Shown here one piece after another: positions 6,268-62,273 of a stretch of 64,000 nucleotides of DNA (within the stretch, counting starts at the first letter, position 1; every line of letters begins with the position of its first letter). The position numbers were made by a program, and so were the translations under genes. The notes under the pieces are model-generated. The model was not told where the DNA came from, made no database searches, and saw only the letters and a list, made by a program, of their open reading frames with translations. Source of the DNA: Dudresnaya verticillata (lineage: Eukaryota); assembly GCA_977862235.1 (NCBI GenBank), contig OZ374560.1, positions 2,790,001-2,854,000 on the forward strand, in the 5' to 3' direction.

Positions 6268-6268
6268 A

Positions 6269-9793: not shown

Positions 9794-10447
9794 CTTCTCT
9801 GTGGCGGTGGTCGTGGGTGCTGGTTGATGTAAAAAGGTGGGTGCGAAGCGAGGTCGGTTCTTGTTCTTTAATAAAGGTCTCTCCTCCTCGGTTGAAAGTG
9901 GTACATACGGGCTGCAGCAAGGACGAGATTCGTGTTCCGTTTTGCTGTTTGTCGAAGGGGAGATCTTTTCGGAAGGCAGTACGGCCATTAACAATAATGG
10001 TTTAACGCGGAAACAATAACAAGAGTGTTTTGTAAGCGCGTTCAAGCCATTTTCTGACTCCGCCTGGGTTCTATGTATAGCCTGTACCTTGGTACAATCT
10101 CAAATGTTCAACAGCCAGCCTTGTAAATATGGACAGGACACCGAGCTGAGCTTCGATGTCAATAGACAAGGACGAAATAGAAATCAGACACACTACCGGT
10201 AGTAAAGCAAGCAACAACCCGGCAGTAATGGCACACACCCGCGACATTTTCAAGGCCTTGTTCTTCCACGTTCGCCATATTCAGTGTCTCTACAGGATCT
10301 GTACAGGAAGCACATGCCTAATTGCACTCGACTCGTTCTACCGGTCAGATCTTGGTCGTACACGTACCCGTCAGATCTTGGTCGTACAGGGATTTTATTA
10401 GTATTAACCTGCAAAGTCGCGAGAACGCGAGAACAAGTACAAAGATG

Positions 10448-10864
10448 TTAACTTGCAAACTCGCGAGAGAACTTTTCTGCTGCTCTTGTTGAAAACTGAG
10501 TATGGGTCTCTCCACGGACATCGTTCCGAATACCGATATATCCTGTGACTTTCGCAAGTGTCTCCATTACCTCCGTCACTGGAACCTTCTTCTGCCGTTC
10601 GTGGTCTAAAAGGTGATTATCTTCAAATGCACGCCGAAACCGTTCGTCATATGGAAGCTGCTTGTTCTTGCAGTCTTCCACCTGGAGTTGGTAGAAAAGC
10701 GGGAATAGCACAGGTGACTGTGGCCTCTGCTTTCGCTCGAGAAATTCTGGCAGCTCCAACATCGGCCACTTGCGAGCCACAAACGACGGCGAAAGAATGA
10801 AAGCGGCAGCCTTACTGCCGCGAATTGCCGCTCGAATTTGCTCTTCGTTTGTACGTTCCGAAAC
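10448..10864 (-). pseudogene. Orphan TIR C-terminus of a Sel1-ROCO-TIR gene (type of 49278-52892)
   Basis: ...RAAIRGSKAAAFILSPSFVARKWPMLELPEF...EKFSREFAS*, nearly identical to 49278-49694 and cut at 10864. Confidence 0.92.
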
Positions 10865-11200
10865 TAGTTTATAGAAACTGAGAGGAGACCTTTACTAAAG
10901 AACAAGAGAGAAGCCCCTTAAGGGGGCTTAGGATTCAGAGCTACCATAAAGAGGCGGAGGAGCAAGTTTGCGGCGGTTGACACTCACCGCGACGCATTGG
11001 AGAACTAAAGAGAGTAAACGAGTAGTGAGGCGAAGTTTCTCCGTAGACGGAGAGGTCCCGCGCTTGCTAGCAATGAAATTAGCAATACGTTGGGCGCCAA
11101 TTTCAGAGCCAGATCCAACTCGGCCATAGACATCTACAACCATAGGATGGAGAACCATATCCAAACTAGCGCATACGCGGCGGTAATGTAATGAGAGCAT
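10865..11200 (-). mobile_element. 3' stub of an RLE-type (CRE/R2-group-like) non-LTR retrotransposon
   Basis: HYRRVC...LHPMVVDVYGRVG...GAQRIANF...LVLQCVAVSVNRRKL*, followed by the hairpin AAGCCCCTTAAGGGGGCTT (10911-10929). Homologous to the other stubs and to 53762-54600. Confidence 0.7.
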
Positions 11201-11281
11201 TTGACACGTTTGCGAGCTGCAATGGCTTGGCAAGCAACGCGACCAGTTATAGAAACTGCCAAATATTGATCCTCCATAAAC

Positions 11282-11316
11282 TCTAGCTTCATGCTTTCGT
11301 AAAGTGACGTTTACCC
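11282..11316 (-). mobile_element. 35-bp micro-insertion with 11-bp target-site duplication
   Basis: Minus strand: GTTTATGGAGG [GGGTAAACGTCACTTTACGAAAGCATGAAGCTAGA] GTTTATGGAGG. Same core at 46706-46736. Confidence 0.8.
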
Positions 11317-11496
11317 CCTCCATAAACCCCGAGGGTATTGTTCGCAATGATCTGCGATCAGAAGCAAGCGCCAATATTTTGGCACTTTGGAGCTCGAAAA
11401 GCTTTGGCCAGAGAGAAAGAGGAAGCAAAAAAGGTATCTCGTGGCAGTCCAGGTAGCGATGTAACAGACAAGGAGGGGTGGCGGGACATAATTTAC

Positions 11497-14400
11497 TTAA
11501 GTATCCTCAATAGCCTCGAACAACATATGTGCAGCTCTCTTGGCGAACTCATTTTCCGATTCTCCTCTATCGTTCCGAGCACCAGTATATTTCGTCACCG
11601 CTGCAACTGTGTCCATTACCTTCGACTCTTTCCCGAACTCGCGTTCAAAGAAGCGATTCTCTTTAAACTCTCGCCAAAATCGGTCGTCGAACGGAAGCTG
11701 TTTGTTCTTACAATCTCTGTACTCGAGTTTGTAGAACAGCGGGAACAGCACAAGGCGCGGTGATCCTTGTTTGCGCTTGAGAAATTCTGAAAGCTCCAAC
11801 AGCGGCCACTTGCGAGAGACAAACGACGATGACAGGATGAAGACGGCAGCTTTGCTGCCCCGGACCGCTGCCCAGATCCGTTCATCAGTTGTTTGCGTGG
11901 AAACCCTCAGACTCTCTTCATCCAGAAAACAACGCAAGCCCTTCTCCATCAACGCACTTCGCAGCGGGTATGCAAGCGACTCCTTATCTGGCCCTGCGTG
12001 GCTGATAAATACATCGAAAGGTCTTGCAGCTAGTCGCACGTCAACAGGACGCGGACCTGAGCCCGCACTTGCTCCTTTGAGGATGTGCGGCTTCAATCGT
12101 TTGAAAGTCCAAAGCTGCTCGCAAACGCAAGTGCCTTCTGCTGGGTCCAGTGGCTGGCACTGCGTACTTGTTACCCAACTCCGACGGATACCCAACTGCA
12201 CGCTACTGGAACTTCCACACCCCCCGCGCAATTCCTTAGGGCAGTCGGTGATCAGATAGTCTTTCCAGCTTGCATTGGTCCCATGCAGTGGTCCCTTCAA
12301 AAAACTTTCCATGCCCCGCAAACACTGGTGCGCAACCTGCAGCGCCTCATCGGCATCCGCCCTTATAGTCCAGTCGATCCATCTCTTTTCTGGTATAAAG
12401 CGAACCACAACTCTGCATGCTCCCTCAAGGGTCAGGATGACGGCATCTTGACGAAGCTCGGGCGCTTTTGTCCGTTCTCTTCCAATGGTTCGGTGAAGGT
12501 ACGCGATCAGTGACCCTGTCAGACTTGGCGGAATGGTATCAACAAACTCTGTTCTTAAAATTATTTCACTCTCTCCCTCCTTTGTGTCACACGAGAACCC
12601 TTCCCAAACCTTTGGCAGCAGTGAAGGTATCCCGATTAGCTCGTTCTGTTCACCATCCGCTGCTTCCACAGCCTGAAGGCGCATGAGAATGTCAAATTGA
12701 CAAAGAATGCCAAGCATGACTTTTCGGACAGCCGATGGGTATTTACACCACAGTGCCTCCAGTCCTTCACGGGGTATCAACCCATTCCGATAACCGTCTG
12801 CTTCATGCTGTCCCAGAGTCTGTAAAGTCCTTTCAAACTCTTTCGCTTCTTCTTCACCCAGTCTTTCTCGCATAAACTCAGCCGGGCCCGTGACCTGCCG
12901 AATAAAGTCCAGAATAACTGTTGGATCTGGGAACACGAACCATCCCTCGCCCGTCTGCACTTCTACGATATGGCCCTGCTGACTCTGGAATTGGACGCAT
13001 TTCTCAACGTCGGCTTCTCTCTCCTCCTTGTCACTAGAGAATCCGGGAAGTCTGGCAGCATGGCTCTGAACTTCTGTCATTACCAGAAAGACTTTTTGGC
13101 TTTCAGTGGCGTGCGACAAAATGGCTTCCCTGAGGGCAGCCCACCGAACTGGAACCTCTTCCCTTCCGTCAAGAATGTCTTCACTTGCTTCCTTGATAAA
13201 CTTCTCCAGTTCCACAACGCCTGACCCGGCACGGTCTTGTTCAGCACTGCTGTTCTTGTTCTCGATGGCAACCCACCGACACTTGCATTTGTCGACATCA
13301 CCCTTCTCACGTACCCAGTCATTGTAGACAGCCCTTCCGAGATTCTTTCGCAGTTTTTGTCGCAGCTGCTGAAACAAGTCTTCAGGGCTTTCAACTTCTG
13401 CCTTCCTGGTTCCCACCAGGATCACCCAAACATTTTTCGGGATTTGCGAAGACGCATGTGCCATTTGCATCCAGTTGCATAGTTCTAACACTTCGTCCTC
13501 TTGGGTGACTTCTGACGCAAAACGTTTCAGATCTACCACGAAAACAAAAATGGAAGCGCGGCGGATGAAGATTGCGGGAACACTGAGGTACTCTGCCTGA
13601 CCCCCAAGGTCCCAGCATTGCACCAACGCAGCTCGATTATCCGCAGGAAATACGGCACTCATGAGCCCTTGCCGTGCTGCTTCCCAAATGGGAGACGCTT
13701 GGGAGTTTATAGACTGCGAAGCAGCAATACTGGGCGGAGCTGGTGGTTGTTGAGCAGTGGTATGGCTGCTTGCCAATGTGTCTCCACTCTGGGGAACGGT
13801 CCTCTTGGTCGGAGGAGCTCGCTTGAGCCAAGTGGGGAGTTTAAGGCGGAATCTTGCGGTGGATTTTTCACTCGGCCGCGATGATGCATCAGTTGCAGTT
13901 GGGAGAAACGCCGATCCAGCTCGAAAGGAGCCGGCATCGGATGCACTTGCTGTAGATGACGTTGGTCGTTCCGTTGGCGTGGGTACCTCTGGAATACGTG
14001 ACCGTTACATGAGGGCATGGAAGGCCTCGCTGTTGAAGGCGAGTTGGTCGACGATGTCATCGTCCAACTTGGGGCCGTCCGGGACGACAAGAGTGCGACT
14101 CAGCGACACAAAGTGTGTCGGCTGGTGGGTGGCAACGAAGGGCATGGAGCGCAGGCTCCTTACCGTGCTTGTCTTACCACGTGCCGCACCGCCGAGAACA
14201 AGAAGAAAGCACTGCCGTGGCTTTGCTGTGGCGGTCTTGAGGGTGTTTTCAACAAGTGTGCTAGTGTCACCGATGCGGTTGACAAGGTATTGCGACCGGC
14301 TGCCGAATAATCCAAGCTCAAGAGGCGTTACCTGTTGATGCGCTGCTTGTTGATGCAGTTGGGCTGCTGCGTGCTCATCGCGAGCAACACCGACATTTCC

Positions 14401-15183
14401 GCGGCCAAGCAATGTGGCGAGCTCATAGAGTGCGACGCGGGTGCGATGGAGTTCGATTGAGCGTTGGAAGAGGCTCTTCGCGCGCGGCGGATCGCGCGCG
14501 TCTCCGATATGATTGGACAAAAGCGCTTGGCCCAACCAAACCATATACATTGGGGCCCTCTCGTGACCGCTGTCGCAGGCGCGTTGGAGCAGTTCGACGC
14601 CGCGCGGAACGTCTCGCGGAACATCGATCTCGCCGCACAGCAGCAATTCGCCCAAATCGGCCATTGCGACGACATCTTCGCCCTCCGCGATGGCGCGCTC
14701 GTACAGCGCAGCGGCGCGCGGAGCGTCTTTGGCGACGCCGTCGCCGGTTGCGAGGAGATTGCCCAAATTGGCCATTGCGTTCACATCCGCAAACTCTGCA
14801 ACGGCTCGTTCGTACAGCGCTGCCGCGCGCTTTGTGTCTTTGACAAAATGGCGCCATCCGATATGGAGACCCACTCCGAGATTGTACAGCGACACCCCGC
14901 GCGGATCTCGCGCGTTGGTGCGCTCGACCAGCTCCGCGGCGCGGCGCTCGTCCTTGGGCACTCCCGCGGCACGTTCCTTTAGCAGCAGTGCAAGGCCATG
15001 CCGAGCTTCGTCATGGTTGCCCTCATGAATCGCTCACTCGAGCAAGGCGACGGCTTGCAAAGGTAGAACAGGCCCTCCATCTGAAGAGTCCCAGTACGCA
15101 AAGGCAAGTGCAACCATGTCGTCGACGTCGGCATTGTCGTCGATAGCTTGGCGAAGGGCACGGCGCTGCTGTGTGGCATCCAT
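11497..15183 (-). pseudogene. Sel1-repeat/ROC/COR/TIR protein, copy A; full length but with TGA (15034-15036) and TAA (14005-14007)
   Basis: One continuous frame from ATG 15183 (MDATQQRRALRQ). The stops align with CGA and TCA in the intact paralogs. Motifs: GGAARGKTS, WDLGGQ, FDVFISHAG, WPLLEL. Confidence 0.92.
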
Positions 15184-27410: not shown

Positions 27411-27773
27411 GTCGCCAAAGACGCTCCGCGTGTACACCGCGCGCAGCTGCGCTGTACGAACGAGCCGTTGCAGAGTTTGCGGATGTGAAGGCAATGGTCA
27501 ATTTGGGCAATCTCGTCGCAAACGGCGACGGCGTCGCCAAAGACGCTCCGCGCGCCGCTGCGCTGTACGAATGCGCCATCGCGGAGGGCGAAGATGTCGG
27601 CGCAATGTACGATTTGGGCGAATTGCTGCTGAGCGGCGAAATCGATGTTCCGCGAGACGTTCCGCGCGGCGTCCGACTGCTCCAACGCGCCTGCGACAGC
27701 GGTCTCGAGAGCGCCCCAATTCATATGGTTCGGTTGGGCCAAGCGCTTTTGTCCAATCATATCGGAGACGCGC
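27411..27773 (+). pseudogene. Inverted internal Sel1-repeat fragment of the ROCO-TIR family
   Basis: VAKDAPR...AAALYERAVAEFADVKAMVNLGNLVANGDGVAKDAPRAAALYECAIAEGE...LLSNHIGDA on the plus strand. Confidence 0.9.
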
Positions 27774-28321
27774 ACCGTCTCCGAGGAGAATGCCCAAATT
27801 GACCATTGCCTTTCACATCCGCAAACTCTGCAGCGGCTCGTTCGTACAGCGCAGCGGCGCGCGGGACGTCTTTGGCGACGCCGTCACCGTTTCTGAGGAG
27901 AAAGCCCAAATTAATCATTGCGTCCACATTTGCAATCTCTGCAACGGCTCGTTCGTACAGCGCTGCCGCGCGCTTTGTGTCTTTGACAAAATGGCGCCAT
28001 CCGTCAGAGAGACGCAGTCCGAGATTGTACAGCGACACCCCGCGCGGAGCTCGCGCGTTGGTGCGCTCGACCAGCTCCACGGCTCGGCGCTCGTCCTTGG
28101 GCACTCCAGCGGCTCCTTCCTTTAAGAACAGTGCAAAGCCGCGCCGCGCTTGGTCATGTGCGCCATCATCAATCGCTTGCTCGAGCAAGGCGACGGCTTG
28201 CAAAGGTAGAACAGGCCCTCCATCTGAAGCGTCCCAGTACGCAAAGGCAAGTGCAACCATGTTGTGGACGTCGGCATTGTCGTCGATAGCTTGGCGAAGG
28301 GTACGGCGGTGTGGCATCCAT
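27774..28321 (-). pseudogene. 5' part of Sel1-ROCO-TIR copy D (Sel1 repeats only)
   Basis: Family ATG at 28321, then a 5-nt deletion; LRQAIDDNADVHNMVALAFAYW...AMINLGFLLRNGDGVAKD; 1-nt insertion near 27812; ends at an inversion junction. Confidence 0.9.
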
Positions 28322-29191
28322 GTCGGCAGGAGCGGGTGGTCAAGCGGGTGGAGACGGTTGGAGATGGGATGGTTGGGGTGTGTGTCGGTGGAGCGAGTGC
28401 TCCAACCGCACGGCTATTTATGCAGCGATGAAAGTTGCCAGTGGGCCCGCCGCAACGCCTCTTGCAGCGGGTTGCAGAATGTGCGGCTGTATGCCGGCGG
28501 TACTGTTTTGCGCGGGTGTTGTGAAAGTCGGCAGGCGAGTTGCCAGGTCAGAAGAGGCGCGCGGTGGTGCACGTGAATTTGGCGCTTGCGCAGATTGGCG
28601 CCCTGCGAGATCTTTCAGCAACGCACAAACGTCACCATCGCTGCAGCCCTTACGACAGAGTCGCGAGCCATCCTTGATCGCATCACGAGCTTCCTGTGGA
28701 AAAAGACGTGCTCCCCGCGAACCAACTCTGGCCGTGTCAAGCCATGCTTTCCTGCCGCCACCCTGCACGCCAGTGTGGTCTCCATTCTCGTCGAGCACGC
28801 ACAGCTGCGGCGCCATACACGTAATGGAACTTGCTTGATGCTCCTCTATTGTAGTCGTTAAGGTGGTCGTACGGGGGTGACGAGGGTACCGTTCGGAGCG
28901 CTGACACCCTGGCCTAGTGGCCTGTACTGTACCGCGGCTACGGAAGTCATCCAACGGGCGGCGCATTGCCGGTTGTTGGCGGAGGCGTTTGTTGCGTGCC
29001 GCGCGACGTGCGATTTCCATCTCTTTTTTTGGCACAACGCAGCCGCGGCTGCATATCGCGGATGTTGCAAAAGTCGGCAGGCGCGTTGCGTCGTTGCATC
29101 AGAGCACAGCGCGGTGCACCTGTATTTGGCGTTTGCAGTATCATCTAAAGCGAGTGCACCTCGCACGACAATGACGACAAACACGGCTCTC

Positions 29192-43727: not shown

Positions 43728-44057
43728 CAAGAATCGCAAACAATCTCTGCCTAGGATTGCAATGAGAACAAGGAAGGAGATTTGTACCACAAGCCGAGGT
43801 GGGTACGCCGACATTTTATTGGAAGAATGTAACGGGTTGGCGTGGATCCGTGAAAAATGTATAAAAGGTGTTTGTATCTATTGTCGTAGTGCAAATATAA
43901 ATATCCTTTCGAAGCTCGTGCTGTGCTGCAATAATGTATAATAATTGTGATTATTATTTATTTTGCTATTATTACAACCTCTTAAATCAGATTGGACTCT
44001 GCATTTTACCAAAGTGTCCAGCTCTATTATCCCTTAATGCCACAACTTGTGATTTCC

Positions 44058-44496
44058 GATGCATCCCGTAGCGGGTAGGCAACGGATCTCTTTTCCGCCC
44101 CTGCGTGGCTGATAAATACAGAGCAATATATCGTCCGGCGTCACTGAGCGCTGTAGTTCAAAAGGGTAGTGGCCTGTGAGGCTGATGATCCCTGAGATAC
44201 TCACTCAAGAATATGCGGCACCAGTTGTCCATACTTCCGCATTTCCCTTCGGCCACCTCGAGTGCCTGGCATTCTTCAGTCGAAACCCATGCCCGAGGTA
44301 TTGACTGCAACACGCTTTTGGAGCGGCCGCGACCACCCTGGACGTTCGAAGGACAATCGGCAACTAGAAAATGATTCCGAGCTTCGCTGCTTCCATGCGG
44401 AGGTCTTTTCAAAAACTCTTGCATAGCTTTCAAATATTGTTGAGCCACCGTCGCTGAGACGGCAACAATCGCACCTGATCGTCCACACAATCCATC
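44058..44496 (-). pseudogene. Old relic of the COR-TIR junction (B type)
   Basis: WIVWTIRCD...LKAMQEFLKRPPHGSSEARNHFLVADCPS...WVSTEECQALEVAEGKC...VFISHAGAEKRSVAYPLR, with frameshifts. Confidence 0.85.
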
Positions 44497-47046: not shown

Positions 47047-49694
47047 CTGGAAGATAGCGAATATTGTTATACAGGCGATTGAGCTGAACCAGGGGCATAA
47101 GCAGCGCCTGAAAAGGTGACGGGTAATGACAAAAACGATAAACAAGCGCGTTGGACTTCTGCCAGAACACAATACAGGAAACGCTATTTCTCTACGGAGC
47201 GAGAGAGAGACCTTTCTCTACGGCGTTAGAATATTTGTGAATATTTGTCATGTCGTTTCTGTGCTTGTTTCAGGATGGGTAGTATTGATGAGAGCTCATC
47301 ATCTCTAAAGAGACAAGTGTCACAGGAGGTGAAAGTGCAACGTACCTTGTGGGTGTAGAAAAGATGTTTAAGACAAGAGCCCAACTTTTATGCTGTGTGC
47401 TAAGTGTTGTGAATCGCAACTACTATTTTTGATAACCACAACTCGAATCAAATGAATCGCAACTACTATTTTTGTTAACCACCCGCCCGCGGAGGCGGAC
47501 GGGTGGTGCAGTGGTTCGCCGCTGCGCGGTCGATTCCGGGAAACCGAGTTCGACTCCCGCCAGGTCCCATGGTTCTACATTTTCAAGGATTTTTCCCCAC
47601 TGGGGTTGTTTGCCGATTCTTCTCATGGAGCCGGCTGGACTGCCTCCAGATTACGGGTGTAAGCCCGTCAGTAGATAGCTGGTTGGTAGGGCGTGTGCCT
47701 GCATATGGGCCTTAGTCGCCCGCGCAACTGCGCACGTTAAAGACGCAATAAAAGTACAACATCACAACCCGTATCAATAGAACAGAATGACATTTCGAGG
47801 AACGAAGAGGACCATGTAGGAGGAGACGGAAGCAGCGAGAGCTCCCAGGGTGAACGGTTACGTCTGCCACCGTCGGAACGTTCCAGCAAATTCATGAGCT
47901 CCGTTGCGGTTTGGTACATACCGCACACAGCCGCCACCCACACTGATACACCCACTCACCGATCCATGCGTGCCGCCACTCGTCCCTTCGAGCTGCTAAC
48001 AGCATATACGGGATTTTGCGTCTCAGGAGACGAGAAACTGTCTAAACATCTCACGTGGAAGTATCTTTCAAACCCACTGGGACGAGGTCGTCGCCCTCGA
48101 AGCGAATTATGTTCCAGACCGTACTCATCGGCAGTCTGGAGACCAAAAGCATTAAAGAAAGTGTGGCGAATACGATGGCCATTGCCCGTCTCGCGCATGC
48201 GAGCGGCCATGTTCTCACCACCGGCCTGTCCAAACAGTTTGTAGGCTCTGCCTTGCTGTTCACACTTGCTCGCCCTGGAAGCTGAAGTGAGAGCCGTCAA
48301 AGCCAAACATGTCTGGATTCTTCGAGGCGAAAGCCATGCAGAAGGCCCGGATGCCGATGCTCTTAAAGTCGCATTCGTAGTGGAGCACGGCGTCAATTTG
48401 CAAGGGGACAATCTGCGTACTGATTCAGCAGGAGAAGGCACACGGGTGGTCGCCAGCGTAGGGGTCCGTGAGGCATCGCGCTTTCGGCTGGTCGCGGCAC
48501 GCGTTTTCCGTGGCGCGGCGTTCGGTGAAAGTGGCCAGCCGGGTGAAGGCAGGCTGTCAAGTGCACGAGCAGCTACTAGTGTGTCGGGTGCGGGCGGTCC
48601 CCCACAGCAAATATACTGGGACAAGGAGGTAAAAGAAACAATCGATAGGGGGGTGTCGTCCATCTTCTCTGTGGCGGTGGTCGTGGGTGCTGGTTGGCGT
48701 AAAAAGGTGAGTGCGAAGCGAGGTTGGTTCTTGTTCTTTAATAAAGGTCTCTCCTCCTCGGTTGAAAGTGGTACATACGGGCTGCAGCAAGGACGAGATT
48801 CGTGTTTCGTTTTGCTGTTTGTCGACGGGGAGATCTTTTCGGAAGGCAGTACGGCCATTAACAATAATGGGTTAACGCGGAAACAATAACAAGAGTGTTT
48901 TGTAAGCACTTTCAAGCCATCTTCTGACTCCGCCTGGGTTCTATGTATAGCCTGCACCTTGGTACGATCTCAAATGTTCAACAACCAGCCTTGTAAATAT
49001 AGACAGGACACCGAGCTGAGCTTCGATGTCAATAGACAAGGACGAAATAGAAATCAGACACACTACCGGTAATAAAGCAAGCAACAACCTGGCAGTAATG
49101 GCACACACCCGCGACATTTCCACGGCCTTGTTCTTCCACGGTCGCCATATTCTGTTTCTCTGTACAGAAACCGCATACCTAATCACACTCGACTCGTTCT
49201 ACCGGCCAGATCTTGATCGCACAGGATTTTAATAGTCTTAACTCGCAAACTCGCGAGGTACAAGATGTTTATTAGTATTAACTTGCAAACTCGCGAGAGA
49301 ACTTTTCTGCTGCTCTTGTTGCAAACTGAGTATGGGTCTCTCCACGGACATCGTTCCGAACACCGATATATCCTGTCACTTTCGCAAGTGTCTCCATTAC
49401 CTCCATCACTGGAACCTTCTTCTGCCGTTCGTGGTCGAAAAAGTGATTATCTTCAAATACACGCCGAAACCGTTCGTCATACGGAAGCTGCTTGTTCTTG
49501 CAGTCTTCCACCTGGAGTTGGTAGAAAAGCGGGAATAGTGCAGGTGACTGTGGTCTCTGCTTTCGCTCGAGAAATTCTGACAGCTCCAACATCGGCCACT
49601 TGCGAGCCACAAATGACGGCGAAAGAATGAAAGCGGCAGCCTTACTGCCGCGAATTGCCGCTCGAATTTGCTCTTCGTTTGTACGTTCCGAAAC
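47047..49694. repeat. Segmental duplication, copy 2; includes the VWD-like pseudogene (about 48000-48663, minus)
   Basis: Matches 8457-10864 apart from the SINE insertion and small indels. Confidence 0.95.
47483..47765 (+). mobile_element. tRNA-derived SINE (283 bp)
   Basis: A box TGGTGCAGTGG (47504), B box GAGTTCGACTCC (47546) and a LINE-like tail ending AATAAAAGTACAACATCAC. Absent at the paralogous site 8891; CAC on both sides. Confidence 0.85.
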
Positions 49695-52600
49695 CTTCAA
49701 ACTCTCTTCATCCAAAAAACACCGCAATCCCATTGCTTCCAATGCATTACGTAGCGGGTAGGCAACGGATCTCTTTTCCGGGCCTGCGTGGCTAATAAAG
49801 ACATCATACGGAGTTACTGAGTCTTGTAGTTCAAAATGATCGTGGCTTGATCCCTCAGACACACCCTCAAGAATATGTAACTTCAGTTGTCCATAGTTCC
49901 ACAGTTGATTGCAATAGCATTTTCCTTCTGCCTCATCGAGTGCCTGACATTCTTCAGTCGAAACCCATGTCTGAGGTATTGACAACAACACACTTTTGGA
50001 GCCGCCGCAACCCCCCTGGATGCTCGAAGGGCAATCAGTAACTAGAAAATGATTCCGAGCTGCGTTGCTTCCGTGCGGAGGTCTTGTCAAAAAATCTTCC
50101 ATAGCTTTCAAACATTCTTGAGCCACCTTCATTGCTGAGACGGCATCGCACCTGATCGTCCACACAATCCATCTTTTCTTAGGAACGAAGCAAACAACAA
50201 CGCGGCAAGTCCCCTTCAGAGAAAGAATTACAGCATCTTGGCGAAGTTCCGGTGGCTTTGTTCGCTCTCCTCCGATAGTGCGATGAAGGAATGCAACAAA
50301 GTAGCCCTCCAAGCCAGGGGGAATGGCATCGTCAAAGATGGTTCTCAAAACAATTTCGCACTCTCCTTCTTTCGTAGGGCACTGGAATCCCTCCCAACCT
50401 TTAGCAAGCAACGACGGGATCCCGACTAGCTCCTTCCGCTCACCACCCTCCGTCTCTGTAGAGTGCAAACGCATAAGAATGCCAAACCGGCACAGAATGT
50501 CAAGCATCACATCTCGAACAGGAGGTAGGTATTTACACCACAATTCATCCAGTCCCTTTCGTGGGATCAACCCTTTCTCGTAACTTTCTGCTTCATGCTG
50601 TCCCAAAGTTTGTAAACTCCTTTCGAACTCTTTCGCTTCTTCTTCACCCAGCCGTTCTCGCATAAGTTCCGCTGGCCCCGTGACCTGCCGAATAAAGTCC
50701 AGAATTACGCTCGGATCTGGAAACACATACCATCCCTCGCCCATCTGAACTTCGACGATATGCCCTTGTTGACCCTGGAATTGGACGCATTTCTCAACGT
50801 CGGCTTCTCTCTCCTCCTTGTCACTAGAGAATCCGGGAAGTCTGGCAGCTTGGCTCTGAACTTCTGTCATTAACAGAAAGACTTTTTGGCTTTCAGTGGA
50901 GTGCGATAAAATGGCTTCCCTGAGGGCAGCCCACCGAACTGGAACCTCTTCCCTTCCGTCAAGAATGTCTTCACTTGCTTCCTTGATTCTTTTCTCTAGT
51001 TCCACAACGCCTGACCCGGCACGGTCTTGTTCAGCACTGCTGTTCTTGTTCTCGATGGCAACCCACCGACACTTGTATTTGTCGACATCGCCCTTCTCAC
51101 GTACCCAGTCATCGTAGACAGCCCTTCCGAGATGCTTTCGCAGTTTTTGTCGCAGCTGCTGAAACAAGTCTTCAGGGCTTTCAACTTCTGCCTTCCTGGT
51201 TCCCACCAGGATCACCCAAACGTTTTTCGGGGTTTGCGAAGACGCATGTGCCATTTGCATCCAGTTGCATAGTTCTAACACTTCGTCCTCTTGGGTGACT
51301 TCTGACGCAAACCTTTTCAGATCTACCTCGAAAACAAAAATGGAAGCGCGGCGGATGAAGATTGCGGGAACACTGAGGTACTCTGCCTGACCTCCAAGGT
51401 CCCAGCATTGCACCAACGCAGCTCGATTATCCGCAGGTAATGCGGCACCCATGAGCCCTAGCCGTGCTACTTCCCAAATGGGAGACGCTTGGGAGTTTAT
51501 AGACTGCGAAGCAGCAATGCTGGGCGGAGCTGGTGGTTGTTGAGCAGTGGTATGGCTGCTTGCCAATGTGTCTCCACTCTGGGGAACGGTCCTCTTGGTC
51601 GGAGGAGCTCGGTTGCGCCAAGTGGGGAGTTTAAGGCGGAATCTTGCGGTGGATTTTTCACTCGGCCGCGATGATGCATCAGTTGCCGTGGGCAGCCGGA
51701 ACAATGTAGCTCTTGACATGAGGGCATGCAAGGCCTCACTGTTGAAGGCGAGCTGGTTGACAATGTCATCGTCCAACTTGGGGCCGCCGGGGACGACAAG
51801 AGTGCGACTCAGCGACACAAAGTGTGTCGGCTGGTGGGTGGCAACGAAGGGCATGGAGCGCAGGCTCCTTACCGTGCTCGTCTTTCCGCGTGCCGCACCG
51901 CCGAGAACAAGAAGAAAGCACTGCCGTGGCTTTGCTGTGGCGGTCTTGAGGGTGTTTTCAACAAGTGTGCTGGTGTCACCGATGCGGTTAAGAAGATATT
52001 GCGACCGGCTGCCGAAGACTTTAAGCTCAAGAGGCGTTACCTGTTGATGCGCTACTTGTTGATGCAGTTGGGCTGCTGTTTGCTCATCGCTAGCAACACC
52101 GACATCTCCGCGGGCAAGCAATGTGGCGAGCTCATAGAGTGCGACGCGGGTGCGATGGAGTTCGATTGAGCGTTGGAAGAGGTTCTTCGCGCGCGGCGGA
52201 TCGCGCGCGTCTCCGATATGATTGGACAAAAGCGCTTGGCCCAACCAAACCATATAAATTGGGGCCCTCTCGTGACCGCTGTCGCAGGCGCGTTGGAGCA
52301 GTTCGACGCCGCGCGGAACGTCTCGCGGAACATCGATTTCGCCGCTCAGCAGCAATTTGCCCAAATTGGACATTGCGATGACATTTTCGCCCTCCGCGAT
52401 GGCGCGGTCGTACAGCGCAGCGGCGCGCGGAGCGTCTTTGGCGACGCCGTCGCCGGTTGCGAGGAGAAGGCCCAAATTGACCATTGCGTCCACATTCGCA
52501 AACTCTGCAACGGCTCGTTCGAACAGCGCTGCCGCGCGCTTTGTGTCTTTGACAAAATGGCGCCGTCCGATATGGAGACGCGCTCCGAGTTTGCGCAGCG

Positions 52601-52892
52601 ACACCCCGCGCGGATCTCGCGCGTTGGCGCGCTCGACCAGCTCCGCGGCGCGGCGCTCGTCCTTGGGCACTCCCTCGGCTCCTTCCTTTAGCAACAGTGC
52701 AAGGCCATGCCGCGCTTCGTCATGGTCGCCCTCATCAATCGCTCGCTCGAGCAAGGCGACGGCTCGCAAAGGCAGAACGGGCCCTCCATCTGATGCGTCC
52801 CAAAACGCAAAGGCGAGTGCAACCATGTCGTGGACGTCGGCATTGTCGTCGATAGCTTGGCGAAGGGCACGGCGCTGCGGTGTGGCATCCAT
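49278..52892 (-). CDS. Sel1-repeat/ROC/COR/TIR protein, copy B (1204 aa, intronless)
   Basis: ATG at 52892 (MDATPQRR), Sel1 repeats, P-loop GGAARGKTS, WDLGGQ, VGTRK, COR (VPVRW...GHI...PSLL) and TIR YDVFISHAG...FLDEESL...FILSPSF...WPMLEL. Confidence 0.93.
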   Translation of the reverse strand: MDATPQRRALRQAIDDNADVHDMVALAFAFWDASDGGPVLPLRAVALLERAIDEGDHDEARHGLALLLKEGAEGVPKDERRAAELVERANARDPRGVSLRKLGARLHIGRRHFVKDTKRAAALFERAVAEFANVDAMVNLGLLLATGDGVAKDAPRAAALYDRAIAEGENVIAMSNLGKLLLSGEIDVPRDVPRGVELLQRACDSGHERAPIYMVWLGQALLSNHIGDARDPPRAKNLFQRSIELHRTRVALYELATLLARGDVGVASDEQTAAQLHQQVAHQQVTPLELKVFGSRSQYLLNRIGDTSTLVENTLKTATAKPRQCFLLVLGGAARGKTSTVRSLRSMPFVATHQPTHFVSLSRTLVVPGGPKLDDDIVNQLAFNSEALHALMSRATLFRLPTATDASSRPSEKSTARFRLKLPTWRNRAPPTKRTVPQSGDTLASSHTTAQQPPAPPSIAASQSINSQASPIWEVARLGLMGAALPADNRAALVQCWDLGGQAEYLSVPAIFIRRASIFVFEVDLKRFASEVTQEDEVLELCNWMQMAHASSQTPKNVWVILVGTRKAEVESPEDLFQQLRQKLRKHLGRAVYDDWVREKGDVDKYKCRWVAIENKNSSAEQDRAGSGVVELEKRIKEASEDILDGREEVPVRWAALREAILSHSTESQKVFLLMTEVQSQAARLPGFSSDKEEREADVEKCVQFQGQQGHIVEVQMGEGWYVFPDPSVILDFIRQVTGPAELMRERLGEEEAKEFERSLQTLGQHEAESYEKGLIPRKGLDELWCKYLPPVRDVMLDILCRFGILMRLHSTETEGGERKELVGIPSLLAKGWEGFQCPTKEGECEIVLRTIFDDAIPPGLEGYFVAFLHRTIGGERTKPPELRQDAVILSLKGTCRVVVCFVPKKRWIVWTIRCDAVSAMKVAQECLKAMEDFLTRPPHGSNAARNHFLVTDCPSSIQGGCGGSKSVLLSIPQTWVSTEECQALDEAEGKCYCNQLWNYGQLKLHILEGVSEGSSHDHFELQDSVTPYDVFISHAGPEKRSVAYPLRNALEAMGLRCFLDEESLKVSERTNEEQIRAAIRGSKAAAFILSPSFVARKWPMLELSEFLERKQRPQSPALFPLFYQLQVEDCKNKQLPYDERFRRVFEDNHFFDHERQKKVPVMEVMETLAKVTGYIGVRNDVRGETHTQFATRAAEKFSREFAS

Positions 52893-53761
52893 GCCGGCAG
52901 GAGCGCGCGGTCGAGCGGGTGGAGACGGTTGGAGATGGGATGGTTGGGGTGTGTGTGTCGGGAGCGAGTGCGACAAGCGCACGGCGCTATTTATGCCGCG
53001 ATGAAAGTTGCGAGTGGGACGGCGGGAGGTGTTGCAGCGCGGCGTGGGCGGCGGTGTGCCGCGTGGCGGAGCTGTTTGGAGCGGATGTTGTAAAAGTCGA
53101 AAGGCGCGTTGTCACGTCAGAGCACAGTGCCCGTGTATTTGGCGCTTGCGCCGATTGGCGCTCTGCGAGATGTTTCGGCCACGCACAAACGTCGTCATCG
53201 CTACAGCCCTTACAACAGAGTCGCGAGCCATCCTTCATCGCTTCGCGAGCTTCGTGCGGAACAAGACCTGCTCCCCGCGAGCCGACTCCGGCCGTGTCCG
53301 GCCATGTTTTTCTGTCGGCGTCCTGCACGCCCGAGGTCTGAGGTGTTGGACATGAGGCGCTGGCCTAGTGGCCTGTGACGCGGCTACGGAAGTCATCCAA
53401 CGGGCGGCGCATTGCCGGTTGTTGGCGGAGGCGGTTGTCGTGTGCTGCGCGACGTGCGATCTCCCATCTCTTTTTGCCACGCAGCAGCCGCGTCTGTATG
53501 CCGGCGGATGTTGTAAAAGTCGGCAGGCGCGTCGCGTCGTTCATCAGCGGCTGTATGCTGCGGATGCGCATCACTGTATTTCTACATCTGCAGCATCTTT
53601 GTCCCACCGCAAGTGCACCTCGCACGACAATGACGACAAACACAGCTCTCAACGCGACTCTCTCTCTCGATGGAAGCGCACTCGGCGATGCGCTGCCGCC
53701 GCCGACCGACCATGCAATGCGCGCGAGGTGTTGTTTCTTTATTGGTGTGGTCGCATAGCGT

Positions 53762-57019: not shown

Positions 57020-60000
57020 CTAGTGACTTTCTAGTTTCTGGAGTAGTGTGATTGCGGCTCGTTGAGCAAAATCCTCGTTCGCCTCTTCGCGGTCATTCCG
57101 AATACCAACAAACGAGCTTAAACGCCCGGCCAAGTCAGCAATTTTCGTTGATGGCGATTGACTCTGTCGTTCGTATTCGAAAAACCCTCTCCTCCTGAAA
57201 AGATCGCTATTCTCTCCATGGAAAACATCCATCGCCTTCTGACACTCTTCGACCGAGAGTTTGTAGAACAACGGGAAAATCAAGGGAGGTTTCTCGCCTC
57301 TTCCAACCGCCTCATCCGTCCGCTTGAAGAATTCTTCCAGCTCTAGCATAGGCCACTTGCGAGCCAGGAACTCTGGTGACAGTATGAATATTGCAGCTCT
57401 GCTCCCTCGAATTGCAGCCATAATTTGGTCCTTATTCGTCTTTGTGGATACCTCGAGGCTTTTCTCATCTAAGAAACAACTGACCTTTGTGCCCATTGCA
57501 TTCATTACCGGCACGGCGAGGCACCCCTTCTCGCTCCCTGCGTGGCTGATAAATACATCGAAAGGTCTTGCAGCTAGTCGCACGTCAACAGGACGCGGAC
57601 CTGAGCCCGCACTTGCTCCTTTGAGGATGTGCAGCTTCAATCGCTTGAAAGTCCAAAGCTGCTCGCAAACGCAAGTGCCTTCTGCTGGGTCCAGTGGCTG
57701 GCACTGCGTACTTGTTACCCAACTCCGACGGATACCCAACTGCACGCTACTGGAACTTCCACACCCCCCGCGCAATTCCTTAGGGCAGTCGGTGATCAGA
57801 TAGTCTTTCCAGCTTGCATTGGTCCCATGCAGTGGTCCCTTCAAAAAACTTTCCATGCCCCGCAAACACTGGTGCGCAACCTGCACTGCTTCATCGGCAT
57901 CCGCCCTTATAGTCCAGTCGATCCATCTCTTTTCTGGAATAAAGCGAACCACGACTCTGCATGCTCCCGCAAGGGCCAGGATGACGGCATCTTGACGAAG
58001 CTCGGGCGGTTTTGTCCGCTCTCTTCCAATGGTTCGGTGAAGGTACGCGATCAGTGACCCTGTCAGACTTGGCGGAATGGTATCAACAAACTCTGTTCGC
58101 AAAATTAGTTCACTCTCTCCATCCTTTGTGTCACACGAGAACCCTTCCCAACCCTTTGGCAGCAGTGAAGGTATCCCGATTAGCTCGTTCTGTTCACCGT
58201 CCGCTCCTTCCACAGCCTGAAGGCGCATGATGATGTCAAATTGACAAAGAATGTCAAGCATGACTTTTCGGACAGCCGATGGGTATTTACACCACAGTGC
58301 CTCCAGTGCTTCACGGGGTATCAACCCATTCCGATAACCGTCTGCTTCATGCTGTCCCAGAGTCTGTAAAGTCCTTTCAAACTCTTTCGCTTCTTCTTCA
58401 CCCAGTCTTTCTCGCATAAACTCAGCCGGGCCCGTGACCTGCCGAATAAAGTCCAGAATAACTGTTGGATCTGGGAACACGAACCATCCCTCGCCCGTCT
58501 GCACTTCTACGATATGGCCCTGCTGACTCTGGAATTGGATGCATTTCTCAACGTCGGCTTCTCTCTCCTCCTTGTCACTAGAGAATCCGGGAAGTCTGGC
58601 AGCATGGCTCTGAACTTCTGTCATTTCCAGAAAGACCTTTTGGCTTTCAGTGGCGTGTGACCAAATGGCTTCCCTGAGGGCAGCCCATCGAACTGGAACT
58701 CGTTCCCTTCCGTCCAGAATGTCTTCACTCGCTTCCTTGATAAACTTCTCTAGTTCCACAACGCCTGACCCGGCACGGTCTTGTTCAGCACTGCTGTTCT
58801 TGTTCTCGATGGCAACCCACCGACACTTGTATTTGTCGACATCGCCCTTCTCACGTACCCAATCATTGTAGACAGCCCTTCCAAGATGCTTTCGCAGTTT
58901 TTGTCGCAGCTGCTGAAACAAGTCTTCAGGGCTTTCAACTTCTGCCTTCCTGGTTCCCACCAGGATCACCCAAACGTTTTTCGGGGTTTGCGAAGACGTA
59001 TGTGCCATTTGCATCCAGTTGCATAGTTCCAACACTTCGTCCTCTTGGGTGACTTCTGACGCAAACCTTTTCAGGTCTACCACGAAAACAAAAATGGAAG
59101 CGCGGCGGATGAAGATTGCGGGAACACTGAGATACTCTGCCTGACCCCCAAGGTCCCAGCATTGCACCAACGCAGCGCGATGGTCCTCAGGAAAAACGTT
59201 ACTCAAGAGCCCTTGTCGTGCTGCTTCCCAAATGGGAGACGCTTGGGAGTTTATAGACTGCGAAGCAGCAATACTGGGCGGAGCTGGTGGTTGTTGAGCA
59301 GTGGTATGGCTGCTTGCCAATGTGTCTCCACTCTGGGGAACGGTCCTCTTGGTCGGAGGAGCTCGGTTGGGCCAAGTGGGGAGTTTAAGGCGGAATCTTG
59401 CGGTGGATTTTTCACTCGGCCGCGATGATGCATCAGTTGCCGTGGGCAGCCGGAACAATGTAGCTCTTGACATGAGGGCATGCAAGGCCTCACTGTTGAA
59501 GGCGAGCTGGTTGACAATGTCATCGTCCAACTTGGGGCCGCCGGGGACAACAAGAGTGCGACTCAGCGACACAAAGTGTGTCGGCTGGTGGGTGGCAACG
59601 AAGGGCATGGAGCGCAGGCTCCTTACCGTGCTTGTCTTGCCGCGTGCCGCACCGCCGAGAACAAGAAGAAAGCACTGCCGTGGCTTTGCTGTGGCGGTCT
59701 TGAGGGTGTTTTCAACAAGTGTGCTAGTGTCACCGATGTGGCTAAGAAGGTATTGCCATTGGCTGCCGAAGACTTTAAGCTCAAGAGGCGTTACCTGTTG
59801 ATGCGCTACTTGTTGATGCAGTTGGGCTGCTGTTTGCTCATCGCTAGCAACACCGACATCTCCGCGGGCAAGCAATGTGGCGAGCTCATAGAGTGCGACG
59901 CGGGTGCGATGGAGTTCGATTGAGCGTTGGAAGAGGTTCTTCGCGCGCGGCGGATCGCGCGCGTCTCCGATATGATTGGACAAAAGCGCTTGGCCCAACC

Positions 60001-60979
60001 AAACCATATAAATTGGGGCCCTCTCGTGACCGCTGTCGCAGGCGCGTTGGAGCAGTTCGACGCCGCGCGGAACGTCTCGCGGAACATCGATTTCGCCGCT
60101 CAGCAGCAATTTGCCCAAATTGGACATTGCGATGACATTTTCGCCCTCCGCGATGGCGCGGTCGTACAGCGCAGCGGCGCGCGGAGCGTCTTTGGCGACG
60201 CCGTCGCCGTTTGCGAGGAGAACGCCCAAATTGACCATTGCGTCCACATTCGCAAACTCTGCAACGGCTCGTTCTAACAGCGCAGCGGCGCGCGGAGCGT
60301 CTTTGGCGACGCCGTCGCCGCTTTCGAGGAGAAAGCCCAAATTGACCATTGCGTCCACATTCGCAAACTCTGCAACGGCTCGTTCGAACAGCGCAGCGGC
60401 GCGCGGAGCGTCTTTGGCGACGCCGTCGCCGCGTCTGAGGAGAACGCCCAAATTGGACATTGCGACGGCATTTTCGCCCTCCGCGATGGCGCGCTCGAAC
60501 AGCGCAGCGGCGCGCGGAGCGTCTATGGCGACGCCGTCACCGGTTGCGAGGAGAAGGCCCAAATTGACCATTGCGTTCACAATCGCAAACTCTGCAACGG
60601 CTCGTTCGTACAGCGCTGCCGCGCGCTTTGTGTCTTTGACAAAACCGCGCGATCCGTTATCGAGACGCAGTCCGAGATTGAACAGCGACACCCCGCGCGG
60701 ATCTCGCGCGTTGGCGCGCTCGACCAGCTCCGCGGCGCGGCGCTCGTCCTTGGGCACTCCCACGGCACCTTCCTTCAGCAACAGTGCAAGGCCATGCCGC
60801 GCTTCGTCATGGTCGCCCTCATCAATCGCTCGCTCGAGCAAGGCGACGGCTCGCAAAGGCAGAACGGGCCCTCCATCTGATGCGTCCCAAAACGCAAAGG
60901 CGAGTGCAACCATGTCGTGGACGTCGGCATTGTCGTCGATAGCTTGGCGAAGGGCAAGGCGCTGCGGTGTGGCATCCAT
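57020..60979 (-). CDS. Sel1-repeat/ROC/COR/TIR protein, copy C (1319 aa, three extra Sel1 units)
   Basis: ATG at 60979, same architecture as copy B, four GDGVA-type 37-aa repeats, and TIR FDVFISHAG...WPMLELEE. Confidence 0.93.
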   Translation of the reverse strand: MDATPQRLALRQAIDDNADVHDMVALAFAFWDASDGGPVLPLRAVALLERAIDEGDHDEARHGLALLLKEGAVGVPKDERRAAELVERANARDPRGVSLFNLGLRLDNGSRGFVKDTKRAAALYERAVAEFAIVNAMVNLGLLLATGDGVAIDAPRAAALFERAIAEGENAVAMSNLGVLLRRGDGVAKDAPRAAALFERAVAEFANVDAMVNLGFLLESGDGVAKDAPRAAALLERAVAEFANVDAMVNLGVLLANGDGVAKDAPRAAALYDRAIAEGENVIAMSNLGKLLLSGEIDVPRDVPRGVELLQRACDSGHERAPIYMVWLGQALLSNHIGDARDPPRAKNLFQRSIELHRTRVALYELATLLARGDVGVASDEQTAAQLHQQVAHQQVTPLELKVFGSQWQYLLSHIGDTSTLVENTLKTATAKPRQCFLLVLGGAARGKTSTVRSLRSMPFVATHQPTHFVSLSRTLVVPGGPKLDDDIVNQLAFNSEALHALMSRATLFRLPTATDASSRPSEKSTARFRLKLPTWPNRAPPTKRTVPQSGDTLASSHTTAQQPPAPPSIAASQSINSQASPIWEAARQGLLSNVFPEDHRAALVQCWDLGGQAEYLSVPAIFIRRASIFVFVVDLKRFASEVTQEDEVLELCNWMQMAHTSSQTPKNVWVILVGTRKAEVESPEDLFQQLRQKLRKHLGRAVYNDWVREKGDVDKYKCRWVAIENKNSSAEQDRAGSGVVELEKFIKEASEDILDGRERVPVRWAALREAIWSHATESQKVFLEMTEVQSHAARLPGFSSDKEEREADVEKCIQFQSQQGHIVEVQTGEGWFVFPDPTVILDFIRQVTGPAEFMRERLGEEEAKEFERTLQTLGQHEADGYRNGLIPREALEALWCKYPSAVRKVMLDILCQFDIIMRLQAVEGADGEQNELIGIPSLLPKGWEGFSCDTKDGESELILRTEFVDTIPPSLTGSLIAYLHRTIGRERTKPPELRQDAVILALAGACRVVVRFIPEKRWIDWTIRADADEAVQVAHQCLRGMESFLKGPLHGTNASWKDYLITDCPKELRGGCGSSSSVQLGIRRSWVTSTQCQPLDPAEGTCVCEQLWTFKRLKLHILKGASAGSGPRPVDVRLAARPFDVFISHAGSEKGCLAVPVMNAMGTKVSCFLDEKSLEVSTKTNKDQIMAAIRGSRAAIFILSPEFLARKWPMLELEEFFKRTDEAVGRGEKPPLIFPLFYKLSVEECQKAMDVFHGENSDLFRRRGFFEYERQSQSPSTKIADLAGRLSSFVGIRNDREEANEDFAQRAAITLLQKLESH

Positions 60980-62273
60980 GTCGGCAGGAGCGGGCGGTCG
61001 AGCGGGTGGAGGCGGTTGGAGATGGGATGGTTGGGGTGTGTGTGTCGGGAGCGAGTGCGCCAAGCGCACGGCGCTATTTATGCCGCGATGAAAGTTGCAA
61101 GTGGGACGGCGGGAGGTGTTGCAGCGCGGCGTGGGCGGCGGTGTGCCGCGCGGCGGAGCTGTTTGGAGCGGATGTTGTAAAAGTCGAAAGGCGCGTTGTC
61201 ACGTCAGAGCACAGTGCACGTGTATTTGGCGCTTGCGCCGATTGGCGCTCTGCGAGATGTTTCGGCCACGCACAAACGACGTCATCGCTACACCCCTGTC
61301 ATACACGGCGCGGCAGCGGCCGTGACGGCGAGACTGCGCAACGGTTTGGTGGGCACGAAATGCTGGCGGTGGATGACGGATGGGATTGCGAGACTGAGCT
61401 GAGCGGCGGAGCGCGAGACTGCAGCGGTACGATGACGATGTTTGGGAGTGGTCAAAAGATCCCACAGTGAGCCAATCCGCGCAGGCGCCAAATACATGTG
61501 CACCGCGCTGCGATGAAGGAAGGCTCGCGACTCTGTTGTAAGGGCTGCAGCGATGACGACGGTTAGCGGCGAAGGCCAAGTTTCCCTCCTCTTGGTCTAC
61601 TTGGCATTGCCTGCTATGATTTTTATCTCCCCGCCCCATTAATCGCGACCAGGACGACTATTTCTTCGGTCGTAGACGAAGTAGGGCGAGGTACAGAATA
61701 GTTCTATTGCGGGGCTCGGTCGGAATCCGCACTAGCGGAGAACAGTTCTTTCACGCTGCCGTGGCTATTCCTCCAGGATACGACGTGTTAAACAGGATTG
61801 AGCACGAGCTCTCCCCTTTTAAGGAAGCCACTGCAGTTTTGACGGTCTTGAAACCGCATATGAAGATGCTCCTATGGCCAAAATGAGAGTACGTTGGCGA
61901 TAAAAGAGCGAAGACCAACAAGTCATTTGGCCAGTTCAAAGATAAAGATTGTTGTTCGAATTGGGGTATTTCTAACGTTTAGGTGCCTTCTATCGCATTT
62001 CCGATGATATGTTTCGCTATCCATTCCAATTGAGTGACTGAAGGAAAGATGCTTGTGAATCTTAAACGAGGCACCGACAACTTCACTACTAACTCGGTTC
62101 AGCTGCTCCGGTTTGATTACTACAACAGTCAAAACGGCAGGGTTAGACTATTTCACGACTGGTCTAGTTACAGTCTCCCCGATAACTACGATGCCGGATT
62201 ATCGCGGATCACAAACAACGACTTATAACTGTACCCCTCCTCTCCCTGTTTTCGGGAATCGTGTGCTTTCCAT

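What the first reader, a model, noticed from the sequence alone, without database searches (positions are those of the whole stretch)
57020..57560. TIR effector domain swapped at a precise breakpoint (FISHAG motif)
Seen: A and C are almost identical through COR up to CCTGCGTGGCTGATAAATACATC (about 11993 in A, 57537 in C; FDVFISHAG). They then diverge abruptly into different TIRs and unrelated 3' flanks. B has a different COR C-half (from about 50600) and a third TIR, yet shares the late Sel1 region and short ROC linker with C. Inference: sensor, switch and effector are reshuffled by recombination or gene conversion through conserved motifs, without introns.
Basis: partly seen in the sequence, partly recalled or inferred. 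Interest (0 to 1): 0.78.

Follow-up and report, generated by a model that had tools for sequence, protein, structure and literature searches.

The report
Seaweed receptor genes swapping TIR tails
Three neighbouring copies of a likely seaweed immune-receptor gene have nearly identical front ends but different signalling (TIR) tails, and two of them part ways within one base at a short conserved motif, most likely because ordinary recombination between gene copies joined a young front end to an older tail.

Summary
The breakpoint is real. Sel1-ROC-COR-TIR paralogs A and C differ at 28 of 1164 bases before window 57536/11992 and at 226 of 489 after it (MaxChi 508, permutation maximum 32). Fourfold-degenerate differences jump from 2/118 to 18/30, so fast TIR evolution cannot explain it.

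It is a one-sided junction: TIR and 3' flank change together and identity never resumes. Protein distances mark C's TIR as the outlier, but the direction is not settled.

The FISHAG DNA is one of the three best-conserved patches between the divergent paralogs B and C. A decayed B-type fragment carries the A/C version of its 22 bases exactly, hinting at a second exchange there.

The wider claim is only partly supported. B's junctions lie inside COR, the 5' part is a fine mosaic, A has two premature stops, and deeper COR and TIR trees of 15 relatives mostly agree. The architecture is already reported in Chondrus crispus.

Best reading: homology-seeded ectopic recombination in a likely red-algal immune gene cluster, with homogenised sensors and diverse effectors. 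No reads or genome were available.

The parts
57020..61069 (-). Gene C: intact single ORF, Sel1 repeats-ROC-COR-TIR, 1349 aa from GTG (probable ATG at 60976); three more 111-nt Sel1 units than A and B
57020..57535 (-). TIR of C after the junction; 44-47% aa to the TIRs of A and B; keeps a longer loop seen in several outgroups and the predicted catalytic Glu (WPMLEL)
57536..57557 (-). 22-nt VFISHAG motif (first TIR strand and following loop) at whose 3' end A/C identity stops
57536..57632 (-). 97-nt tract identical to A 11992-12088 directly before the junction
11497..15180 (-). Gene A: same architecture, in-frame stops at 15036 and 14007, 69 nt extra in the ROC linker; COR 3' part 97% identical to C, TIR closer to B
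11992..12013 (-). The same 22-nt motif in A; junction at 11991|11992
49278..52982 (-). Gene B: intact single ORF, 1234 aa; 5' two thirds about 94-99% identical to A/C by segment, then an old COR end and its own TIR
50586..50774 (-). Zone of intermediate identity (~87%) between B's two junctions, inside COR
44054..44496 (-). Fragment E: decayed B-type COR end and TIR start (86% to B, 61-64% to A/C) that carries the A/C version of the 22-nt motif exactly (44099-44120), with a 10-nt insertion a few bases 5' of it
8457..10864 (-). Remnant of a B-type TIR (13 differences in 417 nt) plus B's 3' flank (93-96%), lying behind A
10865..11330 (-). 3' end of a multi-copy element (LINE-like by recalled motif, no Pfam hit) between A's 3' end and the B-type remnant; 5' limit approximate
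27411..29184 (-). Fragment D: upstream region and Sel1 part of a further copy, part of it inverted

Best explanation
A and C share a nearly identical Sel1-ROC-COR front end that is joined to two long-diverged TIR tails at the FISHAG motif, most likely because a single ectopic crossover or one-sided gene conversion between paralogs used that conserved patch, and C is probably the copy that received the older tail. Shown: the junction, its sharpness, the synonymous jump, the unrelated flanks, the mosaic 5' region. Inferred: (1) repeated exchange keeps the promoter-Sel1-ROC-COR-N part of the cluster homogeneous; (2) exchange tracts that run into the divergent 3' part can resolve only in the few well-conserved patches, FISHAG being one; (3) a junction after the first TIR strand is seamless for the fold, so such a chimera can stay intact; (4) by analogy to NLRs and other Roco proteins, Sel1 repeats would sense, ROC-COR would switch and the TIR would signal, probably as an NADase, so the swap would couple one sensor-switch to another output.
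For: MaxChi 508 vs 31.6 maximum of 2000 permutations. Fourfold sites A/C 2 of 118 before, 18 of 30 after, Fisher p 2e-13. ML distances C-A 0.05 in COR and 1.32 in TIR. COR data reject (A,B), AU p 0.006; 46-row TIR data reject (A,C), AU p 0.019. FISHAG ties for the best 24-nt window (21 of 24; median 15) between B and C over 1.3 kb. Fragment E matches the A/C motif over 22 nt, the longest exact run in 7 divergent pairs (next 16); chance of 7 of 7 same codons about 0.002. 5' informative sites form 41 runs against 61 expected, 0 of 10000 permutations as low. Direction: TIR/COR distance ratio is 0.77 for A-B (typical) and 1.61 for C-B, above all 120 background pairs (maximum 1.18).
Against: With 18 rows the TIR data did not reject (A,C) (AU p 0.12); both AU runs used fast searches. 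The donor's own upstream sequence is not in the window, so the crossover is placed at the motif only if the donor's COR was divergent. The direction is not settled: fourfold sites do not separate A-B from B-C in the TIR (26 of 47 vs 18 of 32), and A is followed by a B-type TIR remnant and flank, which fits A being the rearranged locus. B itself differs from the A/C motif at 3 of 22 bases. Immune function and NADase activity are by analogy only.
Confidence: 0.72

Rival explanations
1. Same kind of event, other direction: C is the native gene and A is the chimera. A piece holding a B-lineage TIR, its 3' end and a LINE-like end replaced the stretch between FISHAG and a downstream B-type TIR, possibly during a retroelement insertion with template switching.
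For: Behind A lie the element's 3' end and then a B-type TIR remnant with B's flank, mirroring the order C then B; B'/B divergence (3-7%) resembles A/C divergence; A's TIR groups with B's; A is broken.
Against: Needs C's TIR to have evolved about twice as fast as expected (ratio 1.61); the element piece looks decayed (stop and frameshift in the frame reading), so it may be older than the junction.
Confidence: 0.25
2. The motif is a true exchange hotspot, kept identical at the DNA level across old lineages, so TIR effectors are swapped repeatedly at this one site as a diversification system.
For: The A/C junction ends at the motif's last base, and fragment E carries the A/C motif exactly with an insertion beside it. 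The Chondrus P0009 group has a TIR nested among NB-ARC-linked TIRs. Relatives show Ank, TIR or Sel1 front ends and other C-terminal domains.
Against: B's junctions (50774, 50586), both ends of E and the start of the B-type remnant are elsewhere. Deep COR and TIR trees mostly agree. The P0009 shift is not formally significant (AU p 0.06 and 0.26; 0.16). No recombinase among 13 ORFs scanned.
Confidence: 0.15
3. No exchange: the TIR diverged fast under diversifying selection after A and C duplicated.
For: The TIR has more amino-acid change than the COR end (pN 0.37 vs 0.02).
Against: Synonymous sites jump as well (pS 0.05 to 0.80; fourfold 2 of 118 to 18 of 30) and the non-coding flanks are unrelated.
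Confidence: 0.01
4. Assembly chimera or two haplotypes placed in tandem.
For: Identical tracts of 97-241 nt between A and C could let an assembler switch copies; no reads were listed to test this.
Against: Both TIRs are joined to the same 97-nt COR end, so a switch upstream would not create the pattern. C reads through the junction in frame to a full TIR, the window has no N, A and C differ at many sites, and their surroundings are not colinear.
Confidence: 0.05

Closest known systems
Chondrus crispus Sel1/TPR-ROCO-TIR proteins (CDF33637, CDF33057, CDF40092; 'TPR-ROCO-TIR (Chondrus crispus)' in PMC11378527, passages read)
   Same: Same domain order; the best named relatives in both searches.
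   Different: About 25-35% identity in the domains compared; five ROCOs are counted in Chondrus, and the passages read describe no recent tandem copies or exchange between them.
Brown algal LRR-ROCO exon shuffling (PMC11378527, passages read)
   Same: Expanded Roco genes proposed as immune receptors that diversify by rearrangement.
   Different: There single LRR exons shuffle and splice in the sensor; here B and C are single ORFs and the change is in the effector tail.
Fungal NLR effector-domain shuffling and intergenic repeat exchange (PMC13449251, passages read)
   Same: Sister genes with different effector domains, exchange between paralogs, many pseudogenes, repeats of high internal identity.
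   Different: NACHT/NB-ARC switch with an N-terminal effector; here ROC-COR with a C-terminal TIR, and the junction is resolved to the base.
TLR1/TLR6 gene conversion in mammals (PMC2077338, abstract read)
   Same: Tandem receptor paralogs with one region homogenised by conversion and sharp tract borders.
   Different: Mirror image: there most of the TIR is homogenised and the sensor diverges; here the sensor-switch is homogenised and the TIR differs.

Membership tests
Roco proteins (ROC-COR) | ROC GTPase with P-loop and DxxG motifs | tested here: met
   Pfam Roc E 3e-8 (C), 5e-7 (B), 6e-6 (A piece, just under the cut-off); GGAARGKT and WDLGG in all three; G4 reads GTRK, a degenerate form.
Roco proteins (ROC-COR) | COR domain directly after ROC | tested here: inconclusive
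   No Pfam COR hit in A, B or C. Relatives aligned over the whole profile hit COR-A below the curated cut-off: P0011 1e-7, P0014 7e-7, P0013 1e-3.
Red-algal Sel1/TPR-ROCO-TIR (Chondrus type) | Order Sel1-ROC-COR-TIR and nearest named relatives in red algae | tested here: met
   3 of the 10 clusters looked up carry a name, all Chondrus crispus; the other 7 are unnamed.
Catalytic TIR (NADase) | Glutamate in the WxxxEL helix | tested here: met
   WPLLEL, WPMLEL, WPMLEL; aligns with the WPQKEL of solved TIR 3h16. That this Glu is catalytic is recalled knowledge.
Catalytic TIR (NADase) | NAD+ cleavage | not testable with these tools
   Needs an assay.
Exon-shuffling receptors of brown algae | Each repeat or module on its own exon | tested here: not met
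   B and C are uninterrupted ORFs of 1234 and 1349 codons and the junction lies inside the ORF. No RNA was available to exclude in-frame introns.
Programmed or site-specific cassette exchange | Two-ended cassette, with identity resuming behind it | tested here: not met
   The A and C flanks share nothing.
Programmed or site-specific cassette exchange | Recurrent junctions at one site | tested here: inconclusive
   One crossover and one 22-nt patch at the motif; five other junctions or fragment ends elsewhere.
Programmed or site-specific cassette exchange | Dedicated recombinase | tested here: inconclusive
   13 of 45 ORFs of 150 aa or more were scanned; apart from the receptor pieces only retroelement integrase and RT scored clearly. 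The genome is not held.
Ectopic recombination / gene conversion in immune gene clusters | Patchwork of tracts, abrupt change at synonymous sites, discordant domain relationships, pseudogene fragments | tested here: met
   fragments D, E and the B-type remnant.

The most novel reading that the evidence does not exclude
In this intron-poor red-algal Roco family the 22-nt FISHAG sequence acts as a shared, DNA-level exchange site: it is kept identical between lineages whose other synonymous sites are saturated, and whole TIR effectors are repeatedly re-coupled there to a homogenised Sel1-ROC-COR sensor, an intron-free counterpart of exon shuffling that diversifies immune output rather than recognition.
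Probability: 0.15. Interest if true: 0.75.

Novelty: new variant of a known kind. Interest (0 to 1): 0.45.

Why it matters
Red-algal immune receptors are known almost only from domain lists. This locus shows, base by base, how an intronless Sel1-ROC-COR-TIR cluster changes: front ends are homogenised, Sel1 copy number varies, and old TIR tails are re-coupled. The usual picture is a variable sensor with a steady effector; here it is reversed. B and C are a natural pair with nearly the same sensor and ROC but different TIRs, so one can test directly whether the TIRs make different products and whether ROC-COR controls them. The mechanism itself, ectopic recombination in a receptor cluster, is well known elsewhere.

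Tried and rejected
No whole genome is held, so genome-wide paralogs could not be tested. No sequencing run was listed; this is no evidence either way. Metagenome scans with the protein alignment (595 pattern matches, none confirmed) and with a 23-nt motif pattern (0 matches) gave nothing.

Word-based protein searches were weak: 7 hits, 0, 0 at E 1e-10 for the TIR of C alone. No close relative of C's TIR, hence no donor, was found. Four answered look-ups of earlier scan findings returned nothing.

The Chondrus genome paper, sought by two recalled ids, is not held, so what it or its supplement says about this family was not seen.

Diversifying selection alone was rejected (synonymous jump). A two-ended TIR cassette was rejected (no return of identity). 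Rampant deep TIR swapping is not supported. An ancient TIR replacement in the P0009 group is suggested by tree position but not significant. Fourfold sites could not give the direction (Fisher p 0.24 and 0.38). No structure or complex was predicted, as it would not bear on the junction.

Full report
Setting. The window is 46-61% GC in 2-kb bins, rich in retroelement pieces and free of N. It holds three minus-strand genes with Sel1 repeats, a ROC domain and a C-terminal TIR: A (11497 to about 15180), B (49278-52982) and C (57020-61069). B and C are single ORFs. A has in-frame stops at 15036 and 14007 and is probably dead as a full-length receptor. There are also three fragments: D (Sel1 part, 27411-29184), E (COR end and TIR start, 44054-44496) and a B-type TIR remnant with B's 3' flank behind A (8457-10864). 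The best named relatives are Chondrus crispus proteins: 3 of 10 clusters looked up carry a name, all Chondrus. A red alga is therefore inferred; the species was not determined.

From the start of COR, A and C differ at 28 of 1164 aligned bases up to C 57536 / A 11992 and at 226 of 489 after it. MaxChi is 508 against a maximum of 31.6 in 2000 permutations, with 0 of 60 mismatches just before and 29 of 60 just after. The last identical tract is 97 nt and ends with the codons of FDVFISHAG. Synonymous difference rises from 0.054 to 0.80, and fourfold-degenerate sites go from 2 of 118 to 18 of 30 (p 2e-13). Selection on the TIR cannot do that. The three 3' flanks share nothing better than E 0.07. 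The junction is one-sided: TIR and flank change together, and this is not a cassette with two ends.

Domain relationships. A profile of the three ROC-COR-TIR parts found 26 proteins at E 1e-30 or better among 1.84 billion representatives. Of 25 top candidates (P0001, P0008-P0031) I used the 15 with enough of both COR and TIR. The 10 dropped were P0016, 18, 21, 25, 27 (no TIR of this kind, or truncated), P0022, 29, 31 (no COR) and P0028, 30 (little COR). In the COR end A and C are 95% identical and each is 60% to B. In the TIR A and B are 65%, and C is 46-47% to either. ML distances are C-A 0.05 (COR) and 1.32 (TIR). AU tests: the COR data reject (A,B), p 0.006. The TIR data did not reject (A,C) with 18 rows (p 0.12, 5000 replicates) and did with 46 rows (p 0.019); both used fast searches. 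The distance jump, not the topology, is the strong evidence.

Deeper in the family the two domains mostly travel together. The groups (P0001, 12, 19, 26), (P0013, 23), (P0014, 20), (P0015, 17, 24) and (A, B, C) appear in both trees. One exception is suggested: the TIR of the Chondrus P0009 group sits among NB-ARC-linked TIRs, but constraints that move it back are not rejected (AU p 0.06 and 0.26; 0.16). Architectures do vary over long times: Ank-ROC-COR-TIR (P0014), TIR-ROC-COR-TIR (P0015), ROC proteins with a different C-terminal region (P0021, P0027) and Sel1-TIR without ROC (P0022, 29, 31), among 15 proteins scanned.

Which copy is the chimera? The TIR/COR distance ratio is 0.77 for A-B, typical of 120 background pairs (median 0.69, maximum 1.18), and 1.61 for C-B. 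Most background pairs are distant; the four closest give 0.74-1.15. C's TIR also keeps a longer loop found in several outgroups. This favours a young A-type front end joined to an older TIR and flank at the C locus. Against it, A is followed by the 3' end of a multi-copy element (LINE-like by a recalled motif, no Pfam hit) and then a B-type TIR remnant with 13 differences in 417 nt plus B's flank. That mirrors the order C then B and could mean A is the rearranged locus. Fourfold sites do not decide. I put about two to one on C. No donor was found.

Is the motif special? Between the divergent 3' parts of B and C, FISHAG is one of three windows with 21 of 24 matches (median 15), beside RKWPMLEL and LEALWCKY, so it is a natural place for an exchange to resolve. 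Fragment E is 86% identical to B and 61-64% to A/C, yet it matches the A/C motif over 22 nt exactly, while B differs at 3 positions; the pattern has 4 matches in the window and none in 100 shuffles. It is the longest exact run in 7 divergent pairs (next 16 nt). The chance that all 7 codons agree, from codon sharing between B and C (93 of 215 conserved residues keep the codon), is about 0.002. E also has a 10-nt insertion a few bases 5' of the patch. This hints at a second exchange at the motif, but it is one decayed copy. Other junctions are elsewhere. B leaves A/C at about 50774 and 50586, both inside COR. E's two ends and the start of the B-type remnant are not at the motif. The 94 informative sites of the 5' part form 41 runs against 61 expected (0 of 10000 permutations as low). 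The cluster exchanges sequence at many places.

Likely working. Shown: a mosaic cluster with one sharp junction after the first TIR strand. Inferred: frequent exchange among near-identical front ends, with tracts ending in the rare conserved patches of the old 3' parts. A junction inside a motif that both parents share leaves the TIR fold whole, so selection may also favour survivors of this kind. By analogy with NLRs and Roco proteins (established knowledge, untested here), Sel1 repeats would bind a ligand, ROC-COR would act as the switch and the TIR would signal. All three keep the P-loop, DxxG and the WxxxEL glutamate, and C's TIR matches solved bacterial and plant TIRs at E 5e-6 to 2e-3 (8 sequences).

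Artefact. No reads could be listed. An assembler switch within the identical tracts (up to 241 nt between A and C) would only change which upstream copy is attached; both TIRs would still follow the same 97 nt. I put this at about 5%.

What is known. TPR-ROCO-TIR is named for Chondrus crispus, with five ROCOs, in PMC11378527 (passages). Sel1-repeat proteins are listed as potential pathogen receptors in Asparagopsis in PMC12115072 (passages). TIR-NB-ARC-WD40 in Chondrus is mentioned in bioRxiv 10.1101/2021.11.29.470438 (passages). PMC8307928 (passages) reviews algal receptor candidates without this family. Effector shuffling and exchange between paralogs are described for fungal NLRs (PMC13449251, passages), and conversion of the TIR side for TLR1/TLR6 (PMC2077338, abstract). 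Nine searches listed no paper on recombination or TIR exchange in red-algal Roco genes, judged from listings and the passages named. The library lacks most subscription papers and the Chondrus genome paper and its supplement.

Verdict. Real, sharp and well supported as recombination. The architecture and the mechanism are known kinds. The new element is the base-level view in a red-algal Roco-TIR cluster, with homogenised sensors and exchanged effectors. A dedicated hotspot remains possible (about 15%). Interest 0.45.

Noticed in passing
window 60113-60647 (gene C): Four near-identical 111-nt Sel1 units (82-90%); C has three more units than A and B, and the units vary at a few fixed positions, as in repeats of high internal identity.
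   Followed up: partly
window 10865-11330, 18130-18550, 25895-26074, 30252-30730, 33488-33740, 63729-63986: At least six decayed copies of the 3' end of one element family, LINE-like by a recalled motif, no Pfam hit for the one copy scanned.
   Followed up: partly
window 61307-61564 vs 55147-55417 and 61208-61287: The region upstream of C is an inverted copy of a segment upstream of B and forms an 80-nt inverted repeat (80%) with C's own proximal upstream region.
   Followed up: no
window 27411-27773 and 27792-29184: Fragment D: Sel1 part with an adjoining inverted piece 94% identical to A; shares a long upstream region with A.
   Followed up: partly
window 42669-43727 (+): 352-aa hydrophobic, likely multi-pass membrane ORF with no Pfam hit.
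   Followed up: no
window 1791-8009 and 20236-21927: LTR retrotransposon pieces: chromodomain integrase (6462-8009 +), RT (20236-21927 +), and two ORFs on the minus strand (1791-5401) that look gag- and protease-like by eye, no Pfam hit.
   Followed up: no
proteins P0021, P0027, P0014, P0015, P0022, P0029, P0031: Relatives with other front ends or tails, including Sel1-TIR proteins without ROC-COR whose TIRs fall near those of A, B and C.
   Followed up: partly
proteins P0009, P0154, P0030, P0032: Roco proteins whose TIR groups with NB-ARC/WD40-linked TIRs; a possible ancient effector replacement, not significant by AU test.
   Followed up: yes
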